Assembly (NCBI GenBank): GCA_035563515.1
Contig: DATMVE010000059.1
Location: forward strand, 22,725 to 86,724
Direction of reading: 5' to 3'
DNA: 64,000 nt
Source of the DNA: Pyrinomonadaceae bacterium
GTDB lineage: Bacteria; Acidobacteriota; Blastocatellia; Pyrinomonadales; Pyrinomonadaceae
Part shown: positions 1 through 13,886 of the stretch, in pieces
How the letters are laid out: the number at the start of each line of letters is the position of its first letter
Position numbering within the stretch: position 1 is the stretch's first letter
Made by a program: the position numbers and the translations under genes
Notes under the pieces: model-generated
Seen by the model: the letters and a program-made list of their open reading frames with translations, nothing else
What the model was told of the DNA's origin: nothing
Databases searched by the model: none

Positions 1-79
1 CTCACATATTTCTTAGCGCCAGCAATGTGGCTGTTCCAATAAGTAGTCTAAGGTAAATAAAAACAACTATTTACAGCGA

Positions 80-193
80 CTTGCTCACTTGCTCACGTCT
101 ATAATGATTTGAACAAGTGAGCAAATTCCTTATTAGCGCGTTAATAGAACTTGCTCACTTACTTTCCACTATAGACGTGAGCAAGTGAGCAAG
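80..193. repeat. Putative replication origin / iteron block: nested inverted repeats built from the 8-mer TTGCTCAC around an AT-rich core
   Basis: 80-103 (cttgctcacttgctcacgtctata) is the perfect reverse complement of 170-193. An inner inverted pair lies at 114-124 and 150-160. There are six copies of TTGCTCAC/GTGAGCAA (81, 89, 117, 151, 177, 185). The block lies just 3' of the helicase gene. Confidence 0.55.
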
Positions 194-208
194 TTTCATT
201 TTACCGCG

Positions 209-1345
209 CTACATTATCTTACTGGCTTCTTCTATGGCCTGCGTGTATTCCTCTGACGGGGCGTAATAGCCAGTCTTCGGACTTATTAAATCCCCTCGCG
301 TAACGGCCGTACTCAAGCAACGAGTAATAGTAGCGTCTGAAATTTTTCCGTCCAGAGCATCTACCACTTCTTTGCGCTTCACCAACCGCCCAAAACTTCT
401 GGCGGTCGAGAGAACAACCTCGTAGTTAGTCGGCGCGGGATGAACTATCTCGTTCGTCGGCACGAACCAGCGGGATTCTTCATCAAGACGCAGTATCACA
501 GGCTCTAGCCGAAAGCCTTTGGATTTCTCGACCGAAAAGATTACCCGCTCAGCATCCAAAGTATCCTTCTTCAACGCCGTCACGGTACGTGCCAAGCCGC
601 CGATATTAGAGCCACCGCGTCCGAGGTACGCGCCGACAGTCGTTTTTCCATCCTCATTCTGCTTGCCAATATGATGTAGCATCCACACTACTGATTTGGC
701 GTCTTTGGCGAGTTTCTTCAAGGGCTGCATGACGACCCTTTTTATTTCAGCATTATCGCTCTCGTTTCTTAACGTGAACAATGCCGACATCGTATCTACG
801 ATAATCAAGTCAGGCTTAAAACTGCGAGCGCACTCCGCGATTGCCTTCAAGTGTTGAGGACTGGAAAGATTAAGAGGCTCATCATTTATTTCTTCATCGC
901 AGATAATGAATAAATTTTCTTCGACGAGGGCGCGTTCTTGAGGAGTCCAACTTCGCATCATTATTTTCAAATCATCCCTTAATTCCGCTTGCGTGCTCTC
1001 GCCGTCAATTAACAACACACGTCGGCTTTCGCCCCCATTGTCTTTAATGAAAGGATGGAACGTCCTACCCGCCGCTAAGGTCAGAGCGAGATTTAAGGAA
1101 ATCGTCGTCTTTCCTAAATTGGTCACGGCAAACATTACCCCGACGTTACCCCGAACCAGACCGAAAAGGATTTTATCTACCTTCTCGAACTCATGATTCG
1201 ACAGTTCGCCCCACGTAAGACCTAACCTAGTTTCGTTAGTAATCTCCGTCTGGCTTTCGCTTGCCGGATTATTTGAGCCATCACCATACTGTTGCTCAAA
1301 ATCCTCTGCTGAATAATCAGTAAATATCGAGTTGTCCATTACCAT
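209..1345 (-). CDS. RecA/DnaB-like replicative ATPase (AAA_25-type helicase of primase-helicase modules)
   Basis: ORF 209..1381. Walker A-like GVMFAVTNLGKTT and Walker B-like DLIIVDTMSALF. Start moved to the in-frame ATG at 1345, which has GGAGGA 7 nt upstream and follows the primase stop (1350-1352). Confidence 0.75.
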   Translation of the reverse strand: MVMDNSIFTDYSAEDFEQQYGDGSNNPASESQTEITNETRLGLTWGELSNHEFEKVDKILFGLVRGNVGVMFAVTNLGKTTISLNLALTLAAGRTFHPFIKDNGGESRRVLLIDGESTQAELRDDLKIMMRSWTPQERALVEENLFIICDEEINDEPLNLSSPQHLKAIAECARSFKPDLIIVDTMSALFTLRNESDNAEIKRVVMQPLKKLAKDAKSVVWMLHHIGKQNEDGKTTVGAYLGRGGSNIGGLARTVTALKKDTLDAERVIFSVEKSKGFRLEPVILRLDEESRWFVPTNEIVHPAPTNYEVVLSTARSFGRLVKRKEVVDALDGKISDATITRCLSTAVTRGDLISPKTGYYAPSEEYTQAIEEASKIM

Positions 1346-1349
1346 TAGG

Positions 1350-2348
1350 CTATCCTCCAACTTGAAACAGCACATCATCAAGACCTTTGCCTAATGATGA
1401 AGACCACGTTCGTATTTTTACTGCTAAGTCCGTTTTCTCAAGCGTATGTTTCAAGCGAAACAGCGCAGCCTTAACTTCCGGCTTTTCTTGCCAATCTATA
1501 TCGAAGCCGATAAGTACGCTTCTCAGCTTAGGTAATCCATGCTTGATTCGAGCAGTAAACTTTTCGGGATTCATCGCCGTCACGCCTGCTAATGCCACAG
1601 TAGCCACATAAGCAAATTCGCTTATACGGTCTGCCTTCAATGCGCCCTCGGTAACAATCACTTCCCCGCTCTGTTCAGTAAGGTCGGGCTTTGAAAAGTG
1701 TAACGGTGCTCCGGGCGATGCTCCTTCCAGCTTATCAGCCGAACTTAGCCATAAATACTTCGGCTCTTGATTCCCGTCGCGGCGAATCTGCAAACCGACG
1801 ATACGCCCGTATTCATCCCTGTAAGGGACGTAGAAGCCTTTGAACGAGACATTCAACTGCCAGCGCCCATCTTGATAGTAGAACCCCGGTACGCCTCTTA
1901 AATCGAAGAACCGAGCCAGCGCACGCGCTAAACGATGGCCTCTAGCCTTATCGGGAACGGAAGCATAAAGCCTGTTAGCAATAGTCGTATCAGATAACCC
2001 GCGCTCATTTAACAGCGCGTTTGCGTGTTCAGGATTAAGTTTCAAATAAGAGAGCAAAGCCATATAAACAGCATCGCAAGTTTTGGCATCGGCTTTCTTA
2101 GGCTCAGTCTTTTGAACAGAAGGAGCGCCAACATAAAGGGCCGTGCTGTTATTAGGGTTTAGAATATGAATGTACCTTCCATCCTTAGCGTGCTGGTCGC
2201 TCCATTTGTATTTACACACAGCGAGCGAGCCATCAACCGTTACTGAGCAGTGATAGCGGTCAGTCCTGCCGCAAATTTGGCAAGTGATTTTGCCCTTCTT
2301 GAAAGGAGATTGAATGTATTGACGTTTTTTCGTTTCGGTAAGTCTCAT
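1350..2348 (-). CDS. Primase-like protein (N-terminal zinc finger plus Toprim-like domain)
   Basis: Cys cluster CQICGRTDRYHC..C near the N-terminus. Toprim-like EVIVTEGALKAD and acidic GFDIDW motifs. The ATG overlaps the upstream stop (TAATG at 2346-2350). Confidence 0.7.
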   Translation of the reverse strand: MRLTETKKRQYIQSPFKKGKITCQICGRTDRYHCSVTVDGSLAVCKYKWSDQHAKDGRYIHILNPNNSTALYVGAPSVQKTEPKKADAKTCDAVYMALLSYLKLNPEHANALLNERGLSDTTIANRLYASVPDKARGHRLARALARFFDLRGVPGFYYQDGRWQLNVSFKGFYVPYRDEYGRIVGLQIRRDGNQEPKYLWLSSADKLEGASPGAPLHFSKPDLTEQSGEVIVTEGALKADRISEFAYVATVALAGVTAMNPEKFTARIKHGLPKLRSVLIGFDIDWQEKPEVKAALFRLKHTLEKTDLAVKIRTWSSSLGKGLDDVLFQVGG

Positions 2349-2563
2349 TACACTTCCCCCTTCTCTTCAACTACGGCCTGATTGAAATGTCGTCGCTTGT
2401 AGTCTTCTAGCTGTTTCATCGTGTATCTGATAGTTCGGTTATTGAATCGAACGTAATCAATCTCGCCGCGTTTTCTAACTGAGCGCATCGTGTAAACTGA
2501 CCACCCGAAAAAACCGGCGGCTTCTCGTTCTGTAAGTAGTGCATTTTCTATATCCTGTATCAT
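2348..2563 (-). CDS. Small helix-turn-helix protein, excisionase/AlpA/MerR-like
   Basis: Core LTEREAAGFFGWSVYTMRSVRKRGEIDYVRF resembles Xis/AlpA-type HTH. The ATG at 2563 has AGGAG 8 nt upstream. Translationally coupled to the primase. Confidence 0.65.
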   Translation of the reverse strand: MIQDIENALLTEREAAGFFGWSVYTMRSVRKRGEIDYVRFNNRTIRYTMKQLEDYKRRHFNQAVVEEKGEV

Positions 2564-3006
2564 TTCAATTACTCCTATAAGGTTGAACGTGCTGTCGCCT
2601 TCCGGTATCATTTAGACAGAAAGCGGCGCACACGCCGCCCCTTGTAGCGCACAAAGCGGTGCTTGGGCGAGGACAGGGCGAAGGTGGTTAGGCGTCGAAA
2701 ACTAAGCCACTTTCGCCTTTCTCTTTATTATCTTTTCGACCTTATTTTACCGATTTGCAACTATCCGCAGCAAGTTCGCGCGCCTATCGTCTGTCCCTCC
2801 AAGTGGTAATTTATTCAACAATTTATACAAGGCGGGAAAACTAAATACAGGCTGTTGCCTATGCTCTGCTATCCTCTCTTGTCTATAAAGTTTGGGGGGC
2901 ATAATCACTCACGTCAAGATTTATTTTTAGACATTCCAAACAAAATGCTCACAACTGAAACTCAGCCGTGAGCAAAGTAATAATTGTCTATAATGTGGGA
3001 AACGAA

Positions 3007-4098
3007 CTAATCAATTAACGTTTCAATCTCACGTAGTTCATCTTCTATATAAATCTTTTCCCAAGATATATTTTCGAGGGTAGGAATTTCGGAATACTTC
3101 TTATAAATCACATGCCCCTTACCTTCGAGCAACCTATAAAAGCAGAACCGCAGCATCTTTAGCGCGATAACGAAATGCTGTTCGCCTTTATGGTTTTTAA
3201 TGTCCGTGTTGGTTATGTCCACTCCATGAACGATTTTTGAGCGGAGGTCATAAAAATCCCTCGCCCACCAGCCATAAATGGTATTGGTCTTATCTTTGCC
3301 TAGAGCGTTCGCTTTTGTAATTCGATTTAAGCCTGTCTGAATAGTGTTGCCGTCTTCACCATATACTGGCATTTTATCAACTTCTAATAATGTCTCTAAG
3401 CGCGTTGCAAATTCATCCTCCTTTTTGTAGCGAGGCAGGTCAAAGAAAATCTCAAACGCAGTCGCCATCATCACGAGTCGGCTCTCTGGACTATATCCAT
3501 CAGCGTTAAAGTAAGCGTACCGCACCCAATCTAAGACCCTAAAATATCTAATATCATCTGGATTATGTGCGTCCGCCATATTTGCAAAAGCATTCATCAG
3601 AAGAGAATCATAACGATATGGGAACGTGCTACTAGGAACGAAGCTAGGTCTAACGAACTTAGTCATTTCTAATGACTGAGTATTCAAATTGCGAAGATAG
3701 CTTCCGGTTTCAAAGGAAATGTAATCGTATTTTGACGGATTTAGTGCAAATGGCTGAATCGCCATATTGAATTGTTCACTCACACATACACTGTTGATTT
3801 GGTTATTGAGGACGCTACAAAACAAAAGAGCAACTGCATATCTATAAAGGTCTTGCGCTTGCTCATCAGTTAGGACATCAAAATTGTAGTTGTCGTCAAT
3901 CACTGCAATAGCTAGGGTCTTTAACCTCTTATGCATGTAATCAACGTAAAGGGAACAGTATTCATCAATACGCTTTCTTAAGTCAGCGTTCGGGATATAC
4001 TTTTCTCCATACTTTGCAAAGTTGAATAGATGGACTCTGTTAATCTTTCGGTCAATATCATCATCAGGAAAGTAAGGCAAGAATGCGAATTGTGGCAT
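3007..4098 (-). CDS. Cargo protein of unknown family with a C-terminal HEPN-like Rx4H motif (candidate Abi-type RNase)
   Basis: 363-aa ORF, AT-rich like the element. Motif WARDFYDLRSKIVHG (R286..H291, nt 3226-3243) fits the HEPN Rx4-6H signature, preceded by a helical segment SRLVMMATAFEIFF. Lies between the integrase terminator and the replication module. Confidence 0.55.
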   Translation of the reverse strand: MPQFAFLPYFPDDDIDRKINRVHLFNFAKYGEKYIPNADLRKRIDEYCSLYVDYMHKRLKTLAIAVIDDNYNFDVLTDEQAQDLYRYAVALLFCSVLNNQINSVCVSEQFNMAIQPFALNPSKYDYISFETGSYLRNLNTQSLEMTKFVRPSFVPSSTFPYRYDSLLMNAFANMADAHNPDDIRYFRVLDWVRYAYFNADGYSPESRLVMMATAFEIFFDLPRYKKEDEFATRLETLLEVDKMPVYGEDGNTIQTGLNRITKANALGKDKTNTIYGWWARDFYDLRSKIVHGVDITNTDIKNHKGEQHFVIALKMLRFCFYRLLEGKGHVIYKKYSEIPTLENISWEKIYIEDELREIETLID

Positions 4099-4180
4099 TA
4101 GATTTCCCTTTCACTAGGCTTAAAGGCTAGCGACCTGATAAGCAAAAATGCGACGGATTTATTTTACTGCAATAGAGGTT

Positions 4181-4212
4181 AAAAAAAGCCAGCCGAAAAT
4201 CGGGCTGGCTTT
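4181..4212 (-). terminator. Rho-independent terminator downstream of the integrase
   Basis: On the minus strand: AGCCAGCC-cgattttc-GGCTGGCT followed by a T7 run (A-run 4181-4187 on the plus strand). Confidence 0.7.
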
Positions 4213-4237
4213 CCTTTTTCAGTTAATAAAAACTTCC

Positions 4238-5377
4238 CTAGTTGATTAGCTGTAGCACGGCTGTGGCTTGTACTTCGGCTGATTGAGCGAGATAGGCTTC
4301 CAAAGCAGACGCGGCACGAAAGACCGTATCATTATCAGCGCGGATATAGCGAAAGACACAGCTAAGGGTGCTGTGTCCGCTCACCCGCATGACAGTAGCG
4401 TGAGGCATCCCGGCCTCAATCATCCGGGTTATGCAAGTCGCCCGGCAATCATGAAAGTGGAAGTCTTCTATTCCGGCCTCGCGGCATATTTTTGTCCACG
4501 CTGTTTTGATTGTCACCTTGACGTTGAAGACATGCGAGTTTTCATCCGTCACATTTTCGCGCCAGCGTAGAAGCCACTCATAAACGCGAATCGTCATAGC
4601 TACAGTCCGGCTCTTCGCGGTCTTCGCGTTGAAGGCCCGGACTGTAATGGTTCGGCTCTCTAAGTCAACGTCTGACCATTTCAGGGTGAACAACTCGCCG
4701 CGCCTTAGCGAGCAATCTAAGGCTATCAAGACCAGCCCTTTAATGTGTGCGCGTTGCGGGTAAGAATCAATGGCGGCTAAAAGCCGCGCTTCTTCAACTC
4801 TCGACAGGATGCGCGTCCGGTGGTTCTCGTCGTTCAGGCTTATTAAGGCGTCACCCTCTGAGAACACGTTTCGCGGCATCCATTGTTCACGAACGGCAAT
4901 CCGAAACATACGCCGCAGTTGTCCAAGTTCCCTGTTGATGGTCGCAATGGTACGCTGCCCGCCCCGACGAGTCGGAGTCTCTAGCCGCATCTTCTTATAG
5001 CTTCGGATTTGGCCGTAAGTAATGGCTTTCAGCTTATGACCACCGAAGTGTTCAACCAGCGGCTTGATTACAGTCCGTGCAGTCACTAGCGAACGCAAAC
5101 CCGAAACCTTCCTTCCGCCGACGTAAGAGGCGGGCTGTAGGTAATGCTCAAGATAATGCTTAGCCAAGTCAGCGAACGTCATGTTCGCGGCGTCTAATTC
5201 TTTAGGCGTTAGAGTCTCCAAGTCGCGGAGTAGCTTTTGAATGATTTTCCGCGCTTCCCCTCTGCTCGCAGCCTTTTTCCAAATGTCTCGTTGCTTTCCG
5301 CTTGCGTCTTTGAACCTCACTCGCGCATAAAGTTTTCCATCCTTCGTAACTATTGAGCCTCTGCGTTCTCTCGGCAT
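4238..5377 (-). CDS. int: Tyrosine recombinase / phage-type integrase
   Basis: 379 aa. Catalytic signature LRRGE (Arg), HDCRATCITRM (HxxR), GHSTLSCVFRYI (His..Tyr). Adjacent to the tRNA half-site. Confidence 0.9.
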   Translation of the reverse strand: MPRERRGSIVTKDGKLYARVRFKDASGKQRDIWKKAASRGEARKIIQKLLRDLETLTPKELDAANMTFADLAKHYLEHYLQPASYVGGRKVSGLRSLVTARTVIKPLVEHFGGHKLKAITYGQIRSYKKMRLETPTRRGGQRTIATINRELGQLRRMFRIAVREQWMPRNVFSEGDALISLNDENHRTRILSRVEEARLLAAIDSYPQRAHIKGLVLIALDCSLRRGELFTLKWSDVDLESRTITVRAFNAKTAKSRTVAMTIRVYEWLLRWRENVTDENSHVFNVKVTIKTAWTKICREAGIEDFHFHDCRATCITRMIEAGMPHATVMRVSGHSTLSCVFRYIRADNDTVFRAASALEAYLAQSAEVQATAVLQLIN

Positions 5378-5400
5378 CGCGCTTCCCTTTCAATGCCGCT

Positions 5401-5433
5401 TCTACCTTTTCATCTACCTTTTCAAAAGGTAGA
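5401..5433. repeat. Direct repeat TCTACCTTTTCA x2 merging into the palindrome TCTACCTTTT-C-AAAAGGTAGA (candidate recombinase arm-type or regulator sites)
   Basis: 5401-5412 and 5413-5424 are identical. 5413-5433 is a perfect 10-1-10 palindrome. Located between the int start codon (5377) and the att junction (5511). Confidence 0.5.
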
Positions 5434-5510
5434 GCGGCTGATTTGACAGAGAAGCGAAAATCTGTAGAATGAAAATGCTTTGAAGGAGTAAGGGTTACGG
5501 TAATTACGAA

Positions 5511-5558
5511 TCCCTTACAAGGAAGAGGTTGGGGGTTCGAATCCCTCCGTGCCTACCA
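5511..5558 (+). other. 3' half of tRNA-Val(TAC), positions 29-76 including CCA. No matching 5' half is present, so this is an att junction remnant.
   Basis: tcc-CTTACAA-gga(ag) anticodon stem-loop, variable loop aggtt, T arm GGGGG-TTCGAAT-CCCTC, acceptor 3' strand cgtgcct, discriminator a, CCA. Upstream sequence has no D arm and no AGGCACG acceptor strand. Confidence 0.75.
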
Positions 5559-5584
5559 AGAAGATTTGAAAATTAGGTTTTCCC

Positions 5585-5666
<82 letters not shown>

Positions 5667-5669
5667 TTG

Positions 5670-5704
5670 GAAAGCGCGCCTGTCTCGTCACAGGCGCGCT
5701 TTTC
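5670..5704 (+). terminator. Rho-independent terminator after tRNA-Asp
   Basis: gaaagcgcgcctgt / acaggcgcgctttt stem followed by T-rich tail. Confidence 0.7.
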
Positions 5705-5930
5705 TACTTTTACACTCACCGTTTACTCGCGCTCCTGTTGCCCCTTCAACTCTCGCAACTGCTTCGCCGCGTTCTGGTCGGCCGGGCCAAGCATCGGTCG
5801 AGTTAGATTGAACCTGAGCACTCCGGCGTGATACTCTCTGGCGCGTTCTCAATCACTTAATCTTCTTTGCAAATTCATGTGCACAGATTTCACGTCGTAG
5901 AGAACCCCAACACCCGTCAGGAGATTAAAG

Positions 5931-6431
5931 ATGCCCAGAAAGATATATGCATTCATTACGTCGCTTCTTGTTTTCGCGCTGCTGGTGAGCGCGTGCAGTA
6001 AGTCTGCCGGCTCGTCACCCACGGCGGCGGCCAAAGCCTTTTACGACGCCGCGAAAGCGGGCGACGTGCAGGGGATGAAGAACGCGATGTCGAAAAAGTC
6101 GCTTGAGATGATGGACGCGTTCGCCAAGCTCGGCGGCAAGTCGCTCGACGATTCCCTCAAGGAGAACTCAAAGCTGCCCGCGGCCTTCGAAGCGCGGAAC
6201 GAGAAGATCACGGGCGACACGGCGACGGTCGAACTCAAAGGCCAGGGGGACAAATGGGACACGATGCCGTTCGTCAAAGAAGACGGCCAGTGGAAGATCG
6301 CCTTTGACAAACTCTTGGAAAGAGCTTTCCAGGAGCCCGGTCCCGGTCCAGAGATTCAGACCCAAAGCCCCGCGCCTCCCGCGCCGAGTAAGGAAAAGAA
6401 CGAAGGCGAACAGTCAACGCCGGAAGACTAA
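5931..6431 (+). CDS. Small lipoprotein (DUF4878-like)
   Basis: Signal peptide with lipobox LLVSAC. AAKAFYDAAKAGD-type start of the mature protein. High-GC3 frame. Confidence 0.7.
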   Translation: MPRKIYAFITSLLVFALLVSACSKSAGSSPTAAAKAFYDAAKAGDVQGMKNAMSKKSLEMMDAFAKLGGKSLDDSLKENSKLPAAFEARNEKITGDTATVELKGQGDKWDTMPFVKEDGQWKIAFDKLLERAFQEPGPGPEIQTQSPAPPAPSKEKNEGEQSTPED

Positions 6432-6517
6432 CACTCCACACACTCGCGGCGCACCTCGCACCCCCGAGTCCGCGGGCGCGAGTCCTGCCGGCCCCGCCAC
6501 TCAATGCTGTAAATCAA

Positions 6518-6558
6518 ACACGCACACCCTTCGGAAGCCGAAGGGTGTGCGTGTTTTT
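6518..6558 (+). terminator. Rho-independent terminator
   Basis: 14-bp stem acacgcacaccctt / aagggtgtgcgtgt, 9-nt loop, then TTTT. Confidence 0.8.
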
Positions 6559-6596
6559 CGAAGCACAGTAGAGAGGCCCCTAACGGGTTCTTTTAA

Positions 6597-6836
6597 TTAC
6601 CTGCCCAGGAGCCGTCTCCACCACGAAGTTTTTTTATAGCCTTGCTTATAGCATTCCTCGTAAATCTTATTCCAAAACGTTTCGTGATATACAGCGTCAT
6701 CCTTCAAAGGTTCTTTATCCCAGATTCTTCTCGCCTCCCTGACCTTCCCCATATACAGAAACGTCTTGGCTTCATCCATCAACTTATTGGCTTCCGCCAT
6801 TCTACTGTCCTCGTTTTTGTCATAAGGCAAGCTCAT
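6597..6836 (-). CDS. Hypothetical small protein in an AT-rich islet
   Basis: ORF 6597..6854 begins at TTG; the first ATG is at 6836. Composition differs from both flanks. No family recognised. Confidence 0.4.
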   Translation of the reverse strand: MSLPYDKNEDSRMAEANKLMDEAKTFLYMGKVREARRIWDKEPLKDDAVYHETFWNKIYEECYKQGYKKTSWWRRLLGR

Positions 6837-7432
6837 AACTGGTATATATAACAATCAAAACCAGGGCGCAAGGTGGGGCGTTATTTTAATCCCCTAACGA
6901 GTATGCCCGCCGCTATAAATATCCATGCCAGCACTAAAATTATAGCCAACAGATGCTTATTACTTTGACGATACCAGACCCGCCAGAATCCTTCCTCGCG
7001 CCTCGCTGGCGGGAGGGGATACGGTTGAAATGTTCAGCCGTGCTTCCCGAAATTCGAGGAGGCTGGTTGGAGTTTCGGGGAGGGCGGTTAGAACTTCTAA
7101 CGGCGTTCCCGAAGTTGTAACTGGCTTCCCGAGATTCTAACGGCGCTCCTGGAAATTCGGGGAGCGTGGTTACAAATGCCAAAACTTTGCGAACGCGCTG
7201 TCGAACGACGTGGCGAACATCATCGCGCGTGCGCGCTCGGGCTTCCGCGCCACCTATGGCCCAGACTCCACGCAATACGAACAGGCCGGCGGCACGCGCT
7301 CGTCCGAGCGCAAGCGCCCCTCGTCCAAGAAGAACCCCGCGCACACGCCTTGAGGCACAAATTTAGGGCGGCGCGCGTGAAGGGAAAATTGTAACCGCCC
7401 GGCCCGGGTGGTCGTCTTCAATAATGGTAGGT

Positions 7433-7491
7433 CGGGCTCTCCCAGTGAGCATCAAATTGATGCGCGTGGGGGAGCCCGGCCAAATTTTTTT
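7433..7491 (+). terminator. Strong hairpin plus T7 run (terminator or attenuator) 20 nt upstream of the 7511 start
   Basis: cgggctctccc (7433-7443) pairs with gggggagcccg (7468-7478) with one mismatch. T-run at 7485-7491. Confidence 0.65.
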
Positions 7492-7510
7492 GGAGTAAAG
7501 GGGAAAGGTC

Positions 7511-7837
7511 ATGAAGAGGTTACTGGCATTCGCATTGGCACTGGCTACGTTCGGGTTCGTCGCTTCGCCCGCGGAGGCGAAGGCTGCGGGGGCGGCCGTC
7601 TCGGCCGGTGTCACTAGTTCCGCCAACGCGCCCGAGCCGCAGTGGCAGAACCGTGGGAGACGCAATCGCAACCGCCGGGGTGGGCGCTGGAATCACCGCG
7701 GGGGCGGCGTGCGCGTGACGACGCAGACGCGCCTCGTGCGCGTGGGCTGGCGGCTCTTCCGCGAGACTTACAGGGTCCGCATCCTGCCGAACGGCAGGAC
7801 CCAGACTACTCTGATAAGCCGCGTCAGAGTCCGCTAA
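7511..7837 (+). CDS. Small secreted Arg-rich hypothetical protein
   Basis: Signal peptide MKRLLAFALALATFGFVASPAEA. GGAG/GGGGAAAGG purine tract upstream of the ATG. Terminator follows. Confidence 0.55.
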   Translation: MKRLLAFALALATFGFVASPAEAKAAGAAVSAGVTSSANAPEPQWQNRGRRNRNRRGGRWNHRGGGVRVTTQTRLVRVGWRLFRETYRVRILPNGRTQTTLISRVRVR

Positions 7838-7860
7838 GAAGGCGATGAATCATCAGACGG

Positions 7861-7897
7861 GCCGGCGCACTCCGCCAGGGGTGCGCCGGCTTTTCTT
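7861..7897 (+). terminator. Rho-independent terminator
   Basis: gccggcgcac / gtgcgccggc stem followed by ttttctt. Confidence 0.8.
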
Positions 7898-8046
7898 GCG
7901 ACGAACGAGCCTTTTTCGGCCAAAAATCCCTTGAAATATGGCTCAAAAACTAACTGTTGACAAAAAGCGCCGAAACATACTTTACTAGTAAAGTCGTTGG
8001 TTGCCCTGCGGGCAATCACGCGGCAATGATCTTTACAAGACGGTTG

Positions 8047-8156
8047 CACACGATAAAGGCAAACCCGCCGCGAGGTGGGGACGCAAAGCCGTGAGTCTCT
8101 TCGAGGGGCGTTTCATTCGAGCGCCTTTTTGCGAGAGATTGTCTGGTTGCCGAAGG
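8047..8156 (+). promoter_or_regulatory. Candidate c-di-GMP-I (GEMM-I) riboswitch aptamer
   Basis: GGCAAACC (8058-8065), hairpin cgcc-GCGA-ggtg with a GNRA loop, GGGACGCAAAGCC (8078-8090) and GGTTGCCGAAGG (8145-8156) match the conserved GEMM-I blocks as I remember them. GGTTGCC can pair with GGCAA(A)CC to close the aptamer. Confidence 0.6.
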
Positions 8157-8589
8157 CAATTGGAAAGAGCCAGGACTTCAAAACTTTCCACTGCTCCGAC
8201 ATGGGAAGACTTCTCTCCAGCCGCGCTCACTCTCTCACGGGCGGCTTTTGAAGTTGAGGCTGGAATCATTCAACTTTTGCGCCCCTGCTTTGATGATTCC
8301 CTTTTCAATTATCTCCTTCCAAAACTGAACCAGACTAACTGAGAGTTCCTGCGGCCTGAGCCCACGAACGCCTCTGACTCTGCCCGCCCGTGCGGAAATC
8401 GCTTCCGCCGGAGCGCGCCTTGTCCGGGGCCGAAGAGTCTCGGCCGTCAACGTTGCTGCCCGTCAACGCGCTCACGCCAGTAGAGCGCGGCCATGAGAAA
8501 GCGCCCGCGGCCCATGCGGGTCCGCCGCCCATTCGGGCCTCGCTACGAGCGGGGCCGTCAGCCTTACGAAAACCAAAGGAGATAATTTG

Positions 8590-9285
8590 ATGTTCAAGAA
8601 ATGCTTAGTCGCAGCCTTCGCCTTCCTGGCCCTCAGCTCGGTCAACGCCCTCACGGCCAACGCGCAGTCGTCGTGCTTGGACCACGAGACGTTCGGCACG
8701 CGCCCGCTCATGGCGGTCGACAAGAATCTTCAGTCGCAGATCGAAGTCACCTATTTCACCACGGACGACCCGAACGCGTTCATCTCCGAAAAGGCCGGTG
8801 TCAGGCGCAGCGCGAGCTACACGAGCCTGAGCGCCACGCAGTTCGTCGCCAAGCTCGACTCTTTGGAGAAGGCCGGCGTGGCGAGCATCAGGAAGCGCGA
8901 GTCCGCGTCCTCTTTCCTGGGCGAAGTTGCCGAACTGAACCTGGAGCGCAACCTTTCGGGCGCGGAAGGAAGAATGATTAACGCGAGCCACGCTTCGGCG
9001 AGCGCGCTGAGCGGGTTGGACCGGCGGACGGAGATCAACGTCTTCCAGGGCCGCCCCGGCGAGCAGGGCTACTACCGCGTGAGCCTGCTGTCCTGGTTCG
9101 TGGACGCGAGGGCCAACGGCGGCCACCAGACCGTGGACTACGACGCCATCGTGCTGCTCAAGCCCGGCCAGACCGCGGTCTTCAAGCTCATGAGCGACAA
9201 CGAAGCCAAGCGCACGGGCGCGGCGCGCAGCTACGTGGCCGTCACCATGCGCGCGGTCAACAGCGCGAGCCTCGCCCGCCGCTAA
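8590..9285 (+). CDS. Secreted hypothetical protein
   Basis: AAGGAG 8 nt upstream of the ATG at 8590. Signal peptide MFKKCLVAAFAFLALSSVNALTANA. High-GC3 frame. Confidence 0.7.
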   Translation: MFKKCLVAAFAFLALSSVNALTANAQSSCLDHETFGTRPLMAVDKNLQSQIEVTYFTTDDPNAFISEKAGVRRSASYTSLSATQFVAKLDSLEKAGVASIRKRESASSFLGEVAELNLERNLSGAEGRMINASHASASALSGLDRRTEINVFQGRPGEQGYYRVSLLSWFVDARANGGHQTVDYDAIVLLKPGQTAVFKLMSDNEAKRTGAARSYVAVTMRAVNSASLARR

Positions 9286-9349
9286 GTCGTCTCCCGCAGC
9301 GCTGGCAAATTGTGCCAGTAACTTCTTCGACTCCGAAACGGAGGCCGCG

Positions 9350-10039
9350 ATGCAGCCGAACAGGAAGAGAACATTTCTTTACGGCCTGCTGGTTAGCTCT
9401 TGCCTCTCCCTGCTGACGTGGGCGGGGCCTGTAAGTTCTGCCGGCGGGCCGGGCGGCGAGGCTGCGATGCCGAAACAGTGCCGGCCGGGAAAGACTGCGA
9501 CCGAAAGTTTCGGCTGGCGCTGGAGGCCGGACGCGCGCGTCAGGCTCTACTACCTGAAGGGCGACTTCGGCGCGGAAGAGGCCGCGGCCCTCGCGCGCGC
9601 CGTCGGCAACTGGAACAACGCCCTGCGAGAGATAAATTCTCAGGTCGTCTTCATCCAGGGCGGCGAACGCGAGGCGGTCGCCGAAGACGACGCGAGCATC
9701 ACGGTCCTGCGCGGCGTGCCCAAGGGGAAAGACCGCCTGGGGCAGTTGAGGCTGTACTCCATGTCGAACGGCGTGATGCGCGCGACCATGATCATCAGCC
9801 CGGCCGTCACGGACCTCGACGCGCTGACGAGCCTGATGGCGCACGAACTCGGGCACTCTCTGGGCCTGGGCGACTGCTACGGCTGCAAGCGCGGCACGAC
9901 CACGATGGCGGCGTTCAAAGACATCAACGAAGGCAACGACGTGTACTCGCCGAGCGAGTGCGACAAGTACGTCGTCGCGCAAGGGTACTCCGGCGGGACG
10001 ACTTCACAGCCGCGACCCGCAACGGCCGAGGGTCGCTGA
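9350..10039 (+). CDS. Secreted zinc metalloprotease (HExxHxxGxxD, snapalysin/matrixin-like)
   Basis: Signal peptide, then motif MAHELGHSLGLGDCYGC. Confidence 0.7.
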   Translation: MQPNRKRTFLYGLLVSSCLSLLTWAGPVSSAGGPGGEAAMPKQCRPGKTATESFGWRWRPDARVRLYYLKGDFGAEEAAALARAVGNWNNALREINSQVVFIQGGEREAVAEDDASITVLRGVPKGKDRLGQLRLYSMSNGVMRATMIISPAVTDLDALTSLMAHELGHSLGLGDCYGCKRGTTTMAAFKDINEGNDVYSPSECDKYVVAQGYSGGTTSQPRPATAEGR

Positions 10040-11757: not shown

Positions 11758-13752
11758 ATGCCTTTCTACGAGCCGTTTGTGGAATGGTCTAGGTGGGGCT
11801 GGCCCCTGCTTGGCAATCACCTCTGGCAAGCGACCCTCTTCTCCCTCTTTGTGCTCATCGTCTGCGCGCCGCTGACGCGCGCCCCCGCCCGCGTGCGCTA
11901 CTCGCTGTGGCTCGTCACCCTCCTGAAGTTCGTCGTGCCGGGCGCGGTCCTGGCCCTGCTCGTCAGGCAGACGGGGATTGACGGACTGTTCGCCCCGGCC
12001 GCAGGCTCGCCCGCGGCCGGGCTGGCGCTCTCGCCTTTTCTCTCTCCGGTGGCGAGCCAGCCCGTGGTGGTCTCCGCGGCCAGGCAGTTCGCGCCGAGCG
12101 GCGAAACCTCTGCGGCCGCCTACGTCGCCGCCGTACATGATCAGGGCCACTGGTACGGCGTGCTCACCCTCGTCTGGCTCGCAGGCTGTGCCATTTTGTT
12201 CGGCTCCTGGCTGAGACAGAGGAGGCTCCTGTCGGCGGCCGTGCGCGCCGGGAGAGTCGCCCGCTGCGGCAGAGAGTTTGAGACCCTTCGGCGCGTCAGT
12301 TCGTGGCTCGGCCTGCGCAGGAAGGTAACGCTCGTGGTTTCGCCGGAGATCGCGGAGCCGGGCGTGTGGCGCACGCTGCGGCCGGTCGTGGTGCTGCCCG
12401 AAGGTGTGGCCGAGCGCCTGAGTGACGACGAACTCGAAGCCGTCATGATGCACGAGATGGTTCACGTTGAGCGTTGGGACAATCTAGTGGGCTTCGTGCA
12501 GCGAACGGTCTGCTGCCTGCTCTGGTTTCACCCGCTCGTCTGGCTACTCGACAGGCGGCTGCTCGCCGAGCGCGAGCAGTCTTGCGACGACACGGTCATC
12601 AGGCTGAGCGGCGACTCGAAGGTTTACGTCTCGGGCATCACGAAGGTCTGCCGGCACAGCATGGGGTGGGAATTGAAGTCCGGCCTCTCCAGCGCGACCG
12701 GCTCCGACCTGAAGAAGAGGCTCAAACGAATCATGGCCGCGGACATCAGCCGGATTCCGTCCGTCCTGCACCGCGCGCTGCTGGGGGCCGTGGTCGCTGT
12801 CCTCTTCGTCCTCTCGGCCGCGTCCGGGATAATCAACGGGGGCAACGCGCCTTCGCAGGACAAGAGTTCGTCGGCGGGCAAAGCCGACCCCCGCTTTATC
12901 GTGGCGGACGCCGAGGCGGCTCCGAGTAAGCACGCCGAGGTTGCCGAAGTAAGGGCTTCGACGGTGCCGCCTCTTCCGCCCCAGGCCGCGCCGCCGCAGG
13001 TAAAAGAAGGCTCGCCCGCGCCGGTCGAAGTCAAGGCCGGGCCTGACCGGCTGGAGCAGATGCCGCCGCCCGAGCAGCAGAGCGGCCCGTCAATCGTCGC
13101 GCTGGTCAATCAACCTAACCAACCCAACGCCACGCCCCTGCCTCCGCAGCCGCCTCAAGAAAGAGAGGCCACACGAGTGTCGGCCGCGTTCATTCCGGCT
13201 TCGATGAACCATGCGGATTTAACGGAGTTCGCCGGCAGGTACGAGGTTGACCCGACGAGGGTAGAGAATTTCATCCTGGACATCACACTCGAACGCGGCG
13301 AGCTGTGGCTCAAGCCGTCGCACGCGTCGAAGCGCAGGCTCCTGCTCGCGCAGGACATGCGCCTGGCCGACACGTACTCCGATTTCGTCTTCTCCGCCCT
13401 GCGCGACAGGGCCGGGCGGGTCGTCGGCCTCAGACTTGATTCCTGGGACAGCAGCATCAGCGCGCGCAAATTGGCCCTCAACCAGCCGAGCCTGCGCGGC
13501 AACGTGACCTTCACACTCAGCGCCCCCCCGAACGCCAGAATAGTCGCCGTCGCCGGCTCCTTCAACAACTGGAACCAGTCGCAATTCCTCTTCGCGCGGG
13601 TCGGCAACGAGTGGGTCTGCAAGATCAACCTCCCGCCGGGAGAGTACGAATACAAGTTCATCATCGACGGCGACTGGCTGCTTGACCCCCTCAACCCGAA
13701 GAAGAGAAACGACGGCCGGGGGCACGTGAATTCGGTCCTCGTCGTCGAGTAG
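11758..13752 (+). CDS. BlaR1/M56-family membrane metalloprotease with a Pro-rich linker and a C-terminal AMPK-beta/CBM48-like glycan-binding domain
   Basis: N-terminal TM helices. HEMVHVERWD (M56 HExxH). C-terminus VAVAGSFNNWNQ...LPPGEYEYKFIIDGDWLLDPLNP closely resembles AMPK1_CBM / E-set modules. Confidence 0.8.
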   Translation: MPFYEPFVEWSRWGWPLLGNHLWQATLFSLFVLIVCAPLTRAPARVRYSLWLVTLLKFVVPGAVLALLVRQTGIDGLFAPAAGSPAAGLALSPFLSPVASQPVVVSAARQFAPSGETSAAAYVAAVHDQGHWYGVLTLVWLAGCAILFGSWLRQRRLLSAAVRAGRVARCGREFETLRRVSSWLGLRRKVTLVVSPEIAEPGVWRTLRPVVVLPEGVAERLSDDELEAVMMHEMVHVERWDNLVGFVQRTVCCLLWFHPLVWLLDRRLLAEREQSCDDTVIRLSGDSKVYVSGITKVCRHSMGWELKSGLSSATGSDLKKRLKRIMAADISRIPSVLHRALLGAVVAVLFVLSAASGIINGGNAPSQDKSSSAGKADPRFIVADAEAAPSKHAEVAEVRASTVPPLPPQAAPPQVKEGSPAPVEVKAGPDRLEQMPPPEQQSGPSIVALVNQPNQPNATPLPPQPPQEREATRVSAAFIPASMNHADLTEFAGRYEVDPTRVENFILDITLERGELWLKPSHASKRRLLLAQDMRLADTYSDFVFSALRDRAGRVVGLRLDSWDSSISARKLALNQPSLRGNVTFTLSAPPNARIVAVAGSFNNWNQSQFLFARVGNEWVCKINLPPGEYEYKFIIDGDWLLDPLNPKKRNDGRGHVNSVLVVE

Positions 13753-13771
13753 CGAAGGTAAGGCAAAAGGA

Positions 13772-13866
13772 AAGACCCTGAAAGGGTCGAACGATAGCCG
13801 GGGGCAAGCGAGCGCGTGAGCGAGCGCCGCCCCCGGCTATCATGTTCGACCCTTTCAGGGTCTTTA
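13772..13866. terminator. Long compound palindrome between convergent genes (bidirectional terminator candidate)
   Basis: The 34-nt arm at 13772-13805 pairs with 13831-13866 (2-nt bulge). Each arm also contains the sub-palindrome gaccctgaaagggtc. Confidence 0.65.
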
Positions 13867-13886
13867 CCTGGGCGGTCGAAAACTTC

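What the first reader, a model, noticed from the sequence alone, without database searches (positions are those of the whole stretch)
1..5558. AT-rich satellite/PICI-like integrative element inserted in tRNA-Val of a high-GC host
Seen in sequence: all genes are on the minus strand, in this order.
- int (4238-5377)
- its own terminator (4181-4212)
- one cargo gene (3007-4098)
- a 395-bp regulatory gap
- a small Xis/AlpA-like HTH (2348-2563)
- a Zn-finger/Toprim primase (1350-2348)
- a RecA-like helicase (209-1345)
- an iteron block (80-193)
Stops and starts are coupled: TAATG at 2346-2350, and the primase stop lies 7 nt before the helicase ATG. Established knowledge: int / alpA / pri-rep / ori is the backbone of phage-inducible chromosomal islands and P4-like satellites. 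No capsid, terminase or conjugation gene is visible in the part inside the window. Inference: the composition is very far from the host's, so this looks like a recent arrival from a compositionally distant donor. I am not aware of this type of element being described in this kind of host.
Basis: partly seen in the sequence, partly recalled or inferred. Interest (0 to 1): 0.6.

Follow-up and report, generated by a model that had tools for sequence, protein, structure and literature searches.

The report
Self-replicating defence island in tRNA-Val
An 18.9-kb AT-rich mobile island sits in a valine tRNA gene of a soil acidobacterium (Pyrinomonadaceae); it has its own integrase, replication origin, primase and helicase and carries a restriction-modification system, and it belongs to a family of islands that is common in this bacterial family and that I did not find described.

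Summary
The second att copy is an intact tRNA-Val(TAC) 13.4 kb left of the window. At least 11 same-genus genomes have the empty tRNA-Val/tRNA-Asp site. Both arms carry the same tandem 12-mer.

- **Backbone:** tyrosine integrase, HTH_17 Xis/AlpA-like protein, DnaG-type zinc-finger primase (fold-confirmed), AAA_25/DnaB-like helicase, iteron origin, and a TPR+Fis-HTH regulator.
- **Cargo:** a complete type I R-M system, a GIY-YIG/RAMA protein (PDC-S14), an ArdC-like protein, a HEPN-like protein and two unknown proteins.
- **Not found:** capsid, terminase, relaxase or T4SS genes.

The element works like a PICI, PICMI or tycheposon-type island: integrative, self-replicating, loaded with defence genes. 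It fails the membership tests for each of those families, and how it transfers between cells is unresolved; a phage helper is my leading guess.

The "distant donor" inference is not supported:
- The primase family occurs in 88 of 401 Pyrinomonadaceae genomes and in none of about 370 from other families of the phylum.
- Related islands are also AT-rich relative to their hosts.
- The att repeat includes a spacer typical of this genus.

Extras: the island seems to patch the tRNA operon it splits, with a new terminator hairpin and an outward promoter. A conserved secreted small peptide is paired with the TPR regulator.

The parts
1..79 (.). Window edge inside the element. The element continues 13,376 bp to the left, to C59:9349, with the intact tRNA-Val at C59:9274-9348. 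Left-hand genes, in L001 coordinates (window = L001 - 14724): ArdC-like 1618-2388(-), SWIM 2463-2732(-), XRE 2845-3096(+), GIY-YIG/RAMA 3106-3831(+), hsdM 3882-5447(+), hsdS 5457-6716(+), hsdR 6713-9913(+), unknown 214 aa 9935-10579(+), unknown 561 aa 10584-12269(+), TPR+Fis-HTH regulator 12333-13883(-), secreted 66-aa peptide 13988-14188(+).
80..193 (.). Iteron block, the probable replication origin. CTTGCTCAC repeats in direct and inverted orientation flank an AT-rich core, directly 3' of the helicase gene.
209..1345 (-). Replicative helicase and probable initiator. It has an AAA_25/DnaB_C-like RecA-fold ATPase and a C-terminal extension. In several relatives it is fused to the primase.
1350..2348 (-). 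DnaG-type primase with an N-terminal Cys4 zinc finger and a Toprim core (E234, D283xD285).
2348..2563 (-). Small HTH_17 protein, an excisionase/AlpA-type regulator. Its stop overlaps the primase start (TAATG).
2564..3006 (.). Regulatory gap upstream of the xis-pri-hel operon. It includes the hairpin 2946-2974, whose arms are iteron-like (TGCTCAC/GTGAGCA) and which is followed by a T-run. This could be the terminator of the cargo gene, an operator, or both.
3007..4098 (-). Cargo gene in the int-xis slot: a 363-aa protein with an invariant Rx4H motif (R286...H291), a candidate Apea-like HEPN nuclease. Its homologs are almost all from Pyrinomonadaceae/Blastocatellia.
4181..4212 (-). Intrinsic terminator after int: a 10-bp GC-rich stem followed by a T-run.
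4238..5377 (-). Tyrosine integrase.
5401..5433 (.). Arm-type sites: TCTACCTTTTCA twice in tandem plus an inverted copy. The same tandem pair lies in the left arm at L001 1487-1510.
5443..5470 (+). Outward-facing sigma-70-like promoter, TTGACA-16-TAGAAT (11 of 12). It points at the tRNA-Val fragment and tRNA-Asp.
5511..5558 (+). Displaced 3' half of tRNA-Val (positions 29-76 plus CCA). This is the attR core and is identical to C59:9301-9348.
5559..5616 (+). Extension of the direct repeat: the Val-Asp spacer and the first 29 nt of tRNA-Asp. The whole repeat is 95% identical to the left copy at C59:9301-9408.
5588..5664 (+). Intact tRNA-Asp(GTC), the second gene of the split tRNA operon.
5669..5704 (+). 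Native terminator of the tRNA-Val/tRNA-Asp operon.

Best explanation
This is an intact 18.9-kb integrative, self-replicating genomic island. It belongs to a family that is endemic to Pyrinomonadaceae (Acidobacteriota).

**Shown**
- It sits between an intact tRNA-Val(TAC) and a displaced 48-nt 3' half of that tRNA.
- The site is empty in sister genomes.
- It encodes a tyrosine integrase, a small HTH_17 protein, a DnaG-type primase, a DnaB/RepA-like helicase, an iteron block, a TPR+Fis-HTH regulator, a full type I R-M system and other defence-type cargo.
- It has no recognisable particle or conjugation genes.

**Inferred mechanism**
- Int, guided by the arm-type 12-mers on both arms, recombines at the anticodon loop of tRNA-Val. 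Int together with the HTH_17 protein excises a circle.
- The helicase recognises the CTTGCTCAC iterons next to its own gene, opens the AT-rich core and recruits the primase. The circle then replicates using the host polymerase.
- The attP-derived arms patch the tRNA operon that insertion splits. On the left arm, a copy of the spacer and tRNA-Asp 1-28 is followed by a complementary element sequence, forming a terminator hairpin after tRNA-Val. On the right arm, an outward promoter drives tRNA-Asp.
- The island cannot transfer on its own. I think it most likely rides in particles of a helper phage, like PICMI or VEIME-type satellites that lack capsid genes. This step is the least supported.
- In the host it acts as a defence island.
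For: **Boundaries**
- The 48-nt repeat is exact at C59:9301 and C59:28235.
- The tRNA-Val at the left end is intact.
- The repeat extends to about 107 nt.
- The same tandem 12-mer lies in both arms.
- The site is empty and contiguous in 11 same-genus genomes.
- GC is 47.3% against 65.1% in the flanks.

**Genes**
- The primase model's best hits are DnaG RNA-polymerase domains (4e2k, E 2e-10) and T7 gp4.
- The zinc-finger cysteines and the Toprim E/DxD residues are invariant across 10 relatives.
- The iterons exceed chance.

**Family**
- Primase homologs occur in 88 of 401 genomes and 26 of 60 genera of the host's family, but in none of about 370 genomes of the phylum outside it.
- Relatives share the int-pri-hel(-TPR_Fis) backbone next to Met, Leu, Asn, Ala and Glu tRNAs, with variable cargo.

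**Crossover site**
- The identity block starts at tRNA position 29 both here and in the tRNA-Ala relative G478.
- In two 5'-type relatives it ends just past the anticodon loop.

**Operon patching**
- The left-junction hairpin folds at -33.6 kcal/mol, z -4.6, and is followed by UUUUCAUUUU.
- The outward promoter matches 11 of 12 positions and is the best site in 5.8 kb.
- Promoter-like sites lie 10-26 nt upstream of the tRNA in 5 of 6 relatives of the 5' type.

**Phage link**
- Primase homologs at 38-40% identity sit on IMG/VR contigs beside a large terminase, an endolysin and a tail gene.
- The host MAG has an HK97-type capsid gene.
- No VirB4-type ATPase was found in the host MAG.
- PICMIs show that int+alpA+prim alone can make a working satellite (PMC10803314).
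Against: - No helper phage, cos/pac site, terS or capsid-remodelling gene was identified.
- No sequence is shared with the only prophage-like contig, C29.
- An attP junction was not found in metagenome contigs.
- The ArdC-like gene is more typical of conjugative DNA entry.
- The promoter and terminator are consensus or folding predictions only. The total count of promoter-like sites in the region is no higher than in shuffles.
- The crossover could lie in tRNA-Asp 1-28 instead. The spacer differences do not decide which copy is chromosomal.
- A second tRNA-Asp/tRNA-Val pair exists on contig C25, so restoring tRNA-Asp expression may not be essential.
Confidence: 0.72

Rival explanations
1. It is an integrative mobilizable element. 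After excision it would be transferred as single-stranded DNA by the conjugation machinery of a co-resident ICE or plasmid, and the ArdC-like protein would protect the incoming strand.
For: - An ArdC-like protein (ArdcN domain plus zincin metallopeptidase) lies at the far-left end, next to att.
- A type I R-M system combined with an anti-restriction gene is common on conjugative DNA (general knowledge).
Against: - No relaxase, T4CP or T4SS domain was found in any element protein.
- No VirB4-type ATPase (PF03135, PF12846) was found in the 93%-complete host MAG.
- The ArdC-like gene is absent from the smaller relatives G478 and G468, so it is cargo rather than backbone.
- ArdC-like proteins also occur in phages (phrog_7245).
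Confidence: 0.13
2. It is an integrating plasmid-like episome with no dedicated transfer route. It would persist by integration and replication, and spread only by transformation, vesicles or generalized transduction.
For: - The replicon is iteron-based with its own helicase and primase.
- No transfer genes were found.
- Tycheposons and VEIME-like elements have also been seen in vesicle fractions (PMC9618062).
Against: - No partition or plasmid-maintenance genes were found in this element.
- The family is spread over 26 genera at many different tRNA sites, and R-M modules are shared at 80-85% nt identity between genera. That argues for efficient horizontal movement.
Confidence: 0.12
3. One reading: a PICI or P4-type satellite that arrived recently from a compositionally distant donor lineage.
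For: - It has the int / HTH_17 / pri-hel / ori backbone and is 18 GC points below the host.
Against: - None of the PICI or P4 hijack genes is present.
- Backbone relatives are confined to Pyrinomonadaceae, and all are AT-rich relative to their hosts.
- The att repeat contains the spacer typical of this genus.
- The regulator is 82% nt identical to a copy on contig C86 of the same genome.
- Homologs of the HEPN-like cargo are nearly all from Pyrinomonadaceae/Blastocatellia.
Confidence: 0.04
4. It is an immobile remnant of a prophage or island, retained only for its defence genes.
For: - No excised form was found in contigs.
Against: - All backbone ORFs are intact.
- The core repeats are perfect, and matching arm-type sites are present on both arms.
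- The site is empty in every sister species examined.
Confidence: 0.05

Closest known systems
Phage-inducible chromosomal islands (PICI/SaPI type)
   Same: - Site-specific tyrosine integrase, a small AlpA/Xis-type HTH protein and a primase-helicase module.
- An iteron origin placed directly 3' of the helicase gene.
- Accessory and defence genes in fixed slots.
- No structural or lysis genes.
   Different: - No terS, ppi, cpm, rpp or capsid genes.
- No Stl-like repressor divergent from int.
- 18.9 kb, larger than typical.
- The primase is DnaG-type (DUF3854).
- By SatelliteFinder logic it would be only a 'Type C' hit, which the authors treat as inconclusive (PMC10085698).
PICMI (phage-inducible chromosomal minimalist islands, Vibrionaceae)
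   Same: - A minimal int + alpA + primase core with no capsid-remodelling genes.
- Defence cargo, including type I R-M, downstream of the primase (PMC10803314).
   Different: - PICMIs integrate next to fis and use DUF3987/DUF5906 primases.
- This element uses tRNA-Val and a DnaG-type primase plus a separate helicase.
- It is three times larger.
- A helper phage is unknown.
Tycheposons (Prochlorococcus; bioRxiv 10.1101/2020.12.28.424599)
   Same: - tRNA-targeting tyrosine recombinase, xis and primase/helicase hallmark genes.
- Variable cargo.
- The family includes members without packaging genes.
- Several tRNA sites are used within one family, and islands accumulate at tRNA hot spots.
   Different: - Different phylum and different hallmark protein families; homology was not tested.
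- The cargo here is defence rather than nutrient acquisition.
- A TPR+Fis-HTH regulator and peptide pair is part of the backbone.
P4-like satellites
   Same: - Integrase at a tRNA.
- A primase-helicase replication protein; some relatives here have it fused, as in P4 alpha.
- A defence hot spot.
   Different: - No psu, delta, sid or epsilon genes.
- No cos site identified.
- Unrelated host range.
Islander-type tDNA islands with anticodon-centred attP (PMC4383910)
   Same: - An intact tDNA plus a displaced fragment in the same orientation, with an integrase inside.
- The identity block starts at the anticodon stem-loop.
   Different: - The identity block runs on into the next tRNA gene and is followed by an element-encoded complementary strand.
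- Close relatives use the rare 5'-fragment configuration (159 of 3919 Islander islands).

Membership tests
tDNA-integrated genomic island (Islander definition) | Intact tRNA gene plus a displaced end fragment in the same orientation, with a tyrosine integrase gene between them | tested here: met
   tRNA-Val lies at C59:9274-9348. The 48-nt 3' fragment lies at C59:28235-28282 on the same strand. int lies between them.
tDNA-integrated genomic island (Islander definition) | Empty target site in related genomes | tested here: met
   Val-spacer-Asp is contiguous in 11 same-genus genomes.
PICI | Integrase, AlpA/Xis-type regulator and pri-rep with an adjacent ori | tested here: met
   - Phage_integrase, E 2e-30.
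- HTH_17, 25.9 bits, just under the 27-bit cut-off; relatives reach E 7e-15.
- DnaG-type primase, AAA_25 helicase and iterons.

PICI | Phage-hijack or packaging genes (terS, ppi, cpmA/B, rppA, capsid genes in cfPICI) | tested here: not met
   No such Pfam or PHROG hit in any of the 15 element proteins. None appeared among the listed families of 59 cargo ORFs of relatives, though only the top 25 of 67 families were shown.
PICI | Induction, replication and packaging dependent on a helper phage | not testable with these tools
No attP junction was found in metagenome contigs.
P4-like satellite | psu, delta, sid, epsilon and alpha core genes | tested here: not met
   No PHROG or Pfam match to any of them.
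PICMI | Integration next to fis; primase of DUF3987/DUF5906 type | tested here: not met
   The site is tRNA-Val. The primase is DUF3854/DnaG-like. The model definition comes from PMC10803314.
Tycheposon | tRNA-targeting tyrosine recombinase, a replication module and cargo, with no capsid or conjugation genes | tested here: met
   The architecture matches.
Tycheposon | Shared hallmark gene families with the Prochlorococcus elements (one linked gene-sharing network) | not tested
   No tycheposon sequences were compared.
Integrative mobilizable / conjugative element | Relaxase and/or oriT; T4CP and T4SS for ICEs | tested here: not met
   No relaxase, T4CP or VirB4 domains in the element. No VirB4 families in the host MAG. 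oriT is not testable.
Type I restriction-modification system | HsdM, HsdS with two target-recognition domains, and HsdR, in one operon | tested here: met
   - N6_Mtase + HsdM_N, E 6e-83.
- Methylase_S, two copies.
- HSDR_N + SWI2_SNF2 + T1RH-like_C.
- PADLOC MTase_I, Specificity_I and REase_I.

DnaG-type (Toprim) primase | Zinc-binding domain, RNA-polymerase domain fold, Toprim Glu and DxD | tested here: met
   - C23, C26, C34, C45, E234 and D283xD285 are invariant.
- Foldseek matches DnaG RNA-polymerase domains at E 2e-10 to 4e-7, TM about 0.55.
- The zinc-finger part of the model has low confidence.
HEPN (Apea-like) nuclease (cargo 3007-4098) | Rx4-6H motif in a helical HEPN fold | tested here: inconclusive
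   - R286-x4-H291 is invariant in 35 homologs.
- The Pfam HEPN_Apea hit is only E 0.005.
- The model is confident (pLDDT 92) but has no significant PDB or BFVD neighbour.
RRNPP-type peptide signalling pair | TPR receptor with an HTH domain, adjacent to a small secreted pro-peptide gene | tested here: inconclusive
   - The gene arrangement is present and conserved in 17 of 30 homolog loci.
- The HTH is C-terminal and of Fis type, and the host is not a Firmicute.
- No homology to RRNPP receptors was tested.
- Peptide processing and import are unknown.

The most novel reading that the evidence does not exclude
The TPR+Fis-HTH regulator and the divergent secreted small peptide form a peptide-communication switch. 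The peptide has a Sec signal, G-x-I-P-C-G-I-T-type motifs and a conserved LLQSVLSL-type C-terminus. The switch would be arbitrium/RRNPP-like but independently evolved, in a Gram-negative acidobacterium. These islands would have captured it from a large host paralog family and would use it to decide when to excise and replicate. Together with the att arms that rebuild a terminator and a promoter for the split tRNA operon, this would define a new island family with host-integrated control.
Probability: 0.12. Interest if true: 0.8.

Novelty: new variant of a known kind. Interest (0 to 1): 0.45.

Why it matters
- **Understudied phylum.** Acidobacteria are among the most abundant soil bacteria, yet their mobile elements are barely charted. 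This island gives a fully delimited reference for a family found in about a fifth of sampled Pyrinomonadaceae genomes. The family moves type I R-M, PARIS-like and other candidate defence genes between genera.
- **Composition as evidence.** A large GC gap need not mean a foreign donor. A whole endemic element family can sit 10-18 GC points below its hosts.
- **att-site design.** The arms appear to repair the transcription unit that insertion splits. One family uses both the 3'-half and the rare 5'-half tRNA integration modes. This makes it a compact system for studying how integrases retarget and how islands limit the cost of insertion.
- **Regulator-peptide pair.** This is a testable lead to peptide signalling outside Firmicutes.

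Tried and rejected
- **attP junction.** An exact-pattern scan of metagenome contigs for the predicted junction gave 0 hits. This is weak evidence, because assemblers drop rare forms.
- **Other assemblies of the element.** ENA, JGI and Logan contigs are 100% identical and in the same context, so they add no independent information.
- **Rfam.** Only the tRNAs were found across the whole element.
- **Unknown 561-aa protein.** It matches only an unannotated PHROG (phrog_33687) and hypothetical proteins, and has no meaningful PDB sequence match.
- **HEPN-like protein.** Fold searches against PDB and BFVD found nothing significant.
- **Conjugation machinery.** A search for VirB4 families in the host found none.
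- **Shared DNA with the prophage-like contig.** A search for a possible cos site shared between the island and C29 found nothing.
- **Crossover in tRNA-Asp.** I considered this because close relatives sit with int next to the 5' end of an intact tRNA. I judged it less likely because the identity stops at Asp position 28, before the anticodon loop. The Val identity starts at position 29, exactly as in the tRNA-Ala relative.
- **Which spacer copy is chromosomal.** Comparing sister genomes did not decide this, because both variants occur in the genus.

Full report
**1. Observation**

- The five minus-strand ORFs are int 4238-5377, cargo 3007-4098, small HTH 2348-2563 (longest frame to 2611), primase 1350-2348 and helicase 209-1345.
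- The hairpin plus T-run after int reads AAAGCCAGCCCGATTTTCGGCTGGCTTTTTTT on the minus strand.
- The TAATG overlap and the 4-nt gap between the primase TAG and the helicase ATG are confirmed.
- The iteron CTTGCTCAC occurs five times in 80-193. Chance expects 0.6 copies in the whole 64-kb window, and no shuffle reaches five. A sixth copy lies just left of the window. The outer copies form a 28-nt inverted repeat.
- ARAGORN and Rfam find only tRNA-Asp (5588-5664) in the window. The sequence 5511-5558 is nevertheless a perfect tRNA 3' half.

**2. True extent**

The window is C59:22725-86724 of a 6.67-Mb, 133-contig, 64.2% GC assembly.
- The 48-nt half-tRNA occurs exactly twice in the genome: at C59:28235 (the window copy) and at C59:9301. 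At C59:9301 it is the 3' half of an intact tRNA-Val(TAC).
- The element between the two copies is 18,886 bp at 47.3% GC, against 65.1% in both flanks.
- The direct repeat does not stop at the tRNA end. It runs through the 29-31-nt spacer and the first 29 nt of tRNA-Asp, 95% identical over 108 nt.
- The tandem 12-mer TCTACCTTTTCA lies in both arms, at window 5401-5433 and L001 1487-1510. This is what arm-type integrase sites look like.
- A query made by joining the two flanks matches contiguously in many same-genus genomes. An alignment of 11 of them shows tRNA-Val, spacer and tRNA-Asp uninterrupted.

**3. Gene content**, from the left end

| Gene | Note |
|---|---|
| ArdC-like protein | ArdcN domain plus zincin peptidase |
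| SWIM zinc-finger protein | 89 aa |
| XRE-type HTH | divergent from SWIM |
| GIY-YIG + RAMA protein | matches PADLOC candidate PDC-S14 |
| hsdM, hsdS, hsdR | complete type I R-M system |
| Two unknown proteins | 214 aa and 561 aa; the 561-aa one matches the unannotated phrog_33687 |
| TPR + Fis-type HTH regulator | 516 aa |
| Non-coding stretch, about 1 kb | ends in the iterons |
| Helicase | AAA_25 / DnaB_C |
| Primase | DUF3854 |
| HTH_17 protein | Xis/AlpA type |
| Cargo protein | 363 aa |
| int | tyrosine integrase |

- The primase has four invariant cysteines, an invariant Toprim glutamate and a DxD motif across ten relatives.
- An AlphaFold model built on that alignment has pLDDT above 85 for residues 82-332. 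Its best PDB neighbours are DnaG RNA-polymerase domains (E 2e-10 to 4e-7), followed by T7 gp4.
- In several relatives primase and helicase are one 715-779-aa protein. The module is therefore a split gp4/P4-alpha-type primase-helicase.
- The 363-aa cargo protein has an invariant R-x4-H motif in 35 homologs and a weak HEPN_Apea hit. Its confident model (pLDDT 92) has no significant structural neighbour, so the HEPN assignment stays tentative.
- Nothing in the element matches capsid, terminase, portal, relaxase, coupling-protein or T4SS families.

**4. Host and family**

Record titles of genomes that the genome search places in the same family or genus identify the host as a Pyrinomonadaceae (Acidobacteriota) MAG.
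- Primase homologs at E <= 1e-10 occur in 88 of 401 sampled genomes of that family, in 26 of 60 genera. The best is 56% identical.
- In an even sample of the phylum, all 13 other genomes with a match belong to the same family, and about 370 genomes of other families have none.
- Ten fetched relatives share int-pri-hel, often with the TPR_Fis regulator and the SWIM/XRE pair. They sit beside tRNA-Met, tRNA-Asn, tRNA-Ala, tRNA-Glu or one of three tRNA-Leu genes, with different cargo. The cargo includes AAA_21+DUF4435 (PARIS-like) pairs and IS elements.
- Relatives with mapped ends are 8.9 kb (G478), 10.9 kb (G468) and 16.1 kb (G487) long.
- All are markedly more AT-rich than their flanks, for example 44-50% against 59-66% in G468.
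- The element in G487, a different genus, has hsdM and hsdR at 85% and 80% nt identity to ours but an unrelated hsdS (28% aa). Its backbone shows almost no nt similarity. Cargo modules are therefore exchanged faster than backbones diverge.

These facts, together with the genus-typical spacer inside the att repeat and a regulator gene 82% nt identical to a copy on contig C86 of the same genome, argue against a recent arrival from a distant donor. Low GC is a family trait.

**5. Where the crossover is, and what the long repeat does**

In the tRNA-Ala relative (G478), the identity block starts 3 nt before the anticodon loop. It runs to the tRNA 3' end and on through the native terminator hairpin.

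In G468 and G487 the configuration is reversed. The block covers tRNA positions 1 to about 40, and the intact tRNA lies next to int. The chromosomal 5' half, with its native promoter, is left at the far end. This is the rare 5'-fragment type, 159 of 3919 islands in Islander (PMC4383910).

All these blocks include the anticodon loop. In our element the Val identity starts at position 29, as in G478, whereas the Asp identity stops at position 28, before its loop. The crossover is therefore most likely in the tRNA-Val anticodon loop. This is an inference, which I put at about 0.7.

Two further features suggest the arms compensate for splitting a two-tRNA operon. The native operon has a promoter TTGACA-17-TAGGAT upstream of Val and a terminator after Asp.
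- **Left junction.** The tRNA-Asp 1-28 copy is followed by element sequence AACTACGACTC, which is complementary to GAGTCGTAGTT of the Asp 5' end. This gives a long hairpin followed by UUUUCAUUUU (-33.6 kcal/mol, z -4.6). It would work as a terminator after tRNA-Val.
- **Right junction.** The best promoter-like site in 5.8 kb, TTGACA-16-TAGAAT (11 of 12), points outward from the int-proximal arm. It ends 40 nt before the Val fragment and tRNA-Asp.
- **Relatives.** Those of the 5' type must supply a promoter for the rebuilt tRNA. They have 9-10 of 12 sites 10-26 nt upstream of it in five of six cases. The 3'-type G478 has none.

These are sequence predictions, not measurements. The overall number of promoter-like sites in the region is not above chance, and a second Asp/Val tRNA pair exists on C25.

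**6. How it probably works**

Integration, excision and replication follow from the parts.
- Int with its arm sites, helped by the HTH_17 protein, integrates and excises the element.
- The helicase loads at the iterons beside its own gene, as in SaPI and P4 origins (established knowledge).
- The DnaG-type primase primes synthesis.

Transfer is the open step.

*For a phage helper:*
- The backbone is that of PICI, P4 and PICMI.
- PICMIs and marine VEIMEs show that satellites can lack all capsid genes and be packaged as concatemers.
- Primase homologs at 38-40% identity lie on viral contigs with a large terminase, an endolysin and a tail gene.
- The MAG has an HK97-type capsid gene and no VirB4-type ATPase.

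*Against:* there is no packaging signal, no hijack gene and no identified helper, and the element carries an ArdC-like gene.

I therefore file it as a replicative integrative defence island that works like a PICMI or tycheposon-type element. My estimates for the transfer route are phage-assisted about 0.45, conjugative mobilisation about 0.13, and no dedicated route about 0.12.

**7. Membership**

- It meets the Islander definition of a tDNA island.
- It has the int / AlpA-type / pri-rep trio, but it fails the defining hijack-gene criterion of PICI and all P4 core genes.
- It fails the fis site and primase family of PICMI, and the relaxase/oriT criterion of IMEs.
- It matches tycheposons in architecture. 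Homology to their hallmark families was not tested.

**8. Side finding**

Divergent from the TPR+Fis-HTH regulator lies a 66-aa ORF (L001 13988-14188). It has a Sec-type signal peptide ending AYA|G, a GHIPCGIT-type motif and a hydrophobic C-terminus.
- The same kind of ORF lies next to the regulator in the G478, G468 and G487 elements.
- It also lies next to the regulator in 17 of 30 further homolog loci.
- The regulator family itself is greatly expanded: 301 of 401 family genomes match, usually with three or more copies.
- The peptide matches no Pfam or NCBIfam family.
- A TPR receptor beside a secreted pro-peptide is the gene arrangement of RRNPP/arbitrium systems, described so far in Firmicutes and their mobile elements (PMC10075063). 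Here the HTH is C-terminal and the phylum is different, so any similarity would be convergent. This is a lead only.

**9. Verdict**

The finding is a real, well-delimited and intact mobile island. Its kind is known: tRNA-integrating, self-replicating, defence-carrying, and satellite-like in backbone. Its family appears undescribed and is specific to a poorly studied soil lineage. The tool for sequencing reads was closed, so activity could not be tested.

Noticed in passing
L001 13988-14188 (+), i.e. 537-737 bp left of window position 1; regulator L001 12333-13883 (-): A conserved small secreted peptide lies divergent from the TPR+Fis-HTH regulator. It has a signal peptide ending A(F/Y)A|G, one to three G-x-I-P-C-G-I-T-like motifs and an LLQSVLSL-type C-terminus. 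It is present in 4 related islands and in 17 of 30 other homolog loci. It matches no Pfam or NCBIfam family. The regulator family is expanded in 301 of 401 Pyrinomonadaceae genomes. This is a candidate receptor/pro-peptide signalling pair.
   Followed up: partly
L043 4354-4430 and 15332-15375 (G468); L036 3849-3925 and L171 about 976-1020 (G487): Close relatives integrate into the 5' half of tRNA-Glu and tRNA-Met. The island supplies tRNA positions 1 to about 40 plus a promoter (TTGAAT-17-TATAAT in G487). The chromosomal 5' half, with its native promoter, is left at the far end. One integrase family therefore uses both the 3'-half and the rare 5'-half mode.
   Followed up: partly
L172 (G002:C48:33001-52000); L173/L174 (G015:C5:2424501-2456000): In two sister species the same Val-Asp operon carries a different AT-richer island downstream of tRNA-Asp, about 17.6 kb and about 29 kb long. 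Each is bounded by a repeat of the tRNA-Asp 3' part and has a distal integrase only 27% identical to ours. The locus is a genus-wide integration hot spot with two distinct att sites.
   Followed up: partly
L001 9935-12269 (+): Two unknown genes (214 aa and 561 aa) lie directly downstream of hsdR. They are 4 nt apart from each other and are probably co-transcribed with hsdR. The 561-aa protein matches the unannotated phrog_33687, has about 30 homologs (mostly about 440 aa, hypothetical), and has a 46% identical homolog in the minimal 8.9-kb island of G478. They may be a defence or accessory pair.
   Followed up: partly
L036 12665-18656 versus L001 3882-9913: The type I R-M module of the G487 island, from another genus, is 80-85% nt identical in hsdR and hsdM but has an unrelated hsdS (28% aa). 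The backbones are only 40-56% aa identical. This indicates module exchange and specificity swapping between islands.
   Followed up: partly
Own genome: C86:71191-73126, C86:41068-42219, C62:69334-69619, C22:65593-66693: Other copies of island modules are scattered in the same genome: the regulator plus peptide region at 82% nt, integrases at 51% and 46% aa, and a SWIM gene at 80% aa. Only one primase is present. Further related or decayed islands are likely.
   Followed up: no
L001 2420-2456: A 15-bp-stem hairpin lies between the SWIM and ArdC-like genes, inside what looks like one operon. Its function is unknown; it could be an attenuator, a terminator or a single-strand signal.
   Followed up: no
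Own genome C25:4800-4876 and 5595-5669; whole genome: A second tRNA-Asp(GTC)/tRNA-Val(TAC) pair lies on contig C25. ARAGORN tRNA genes in all, with many duplicates and one 'tRNA-Stop(tta)' call. This may reflect a tRNA array on another element or bin contamination (2.9%).
   Followed up: no
Own genome C29:22142-22999: An HK97-type major capsid gene in a 658-aa open frame lies on a 43-kb contig. It is the only prophage-like signal I looked for, and it shares no DNA with the island.
   Followed up: partly
L133, L134 (IMG/VR contigs): Viral contigs of about 45 kb carry a primase 38-40% identical to the island's, beside a helicase, ParB-like genes, RecT, HNH endonucleases, a large terminase, an endolysin and a tail gene. 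The primase lineage is shared with tailed phages.
   Followed up: partly
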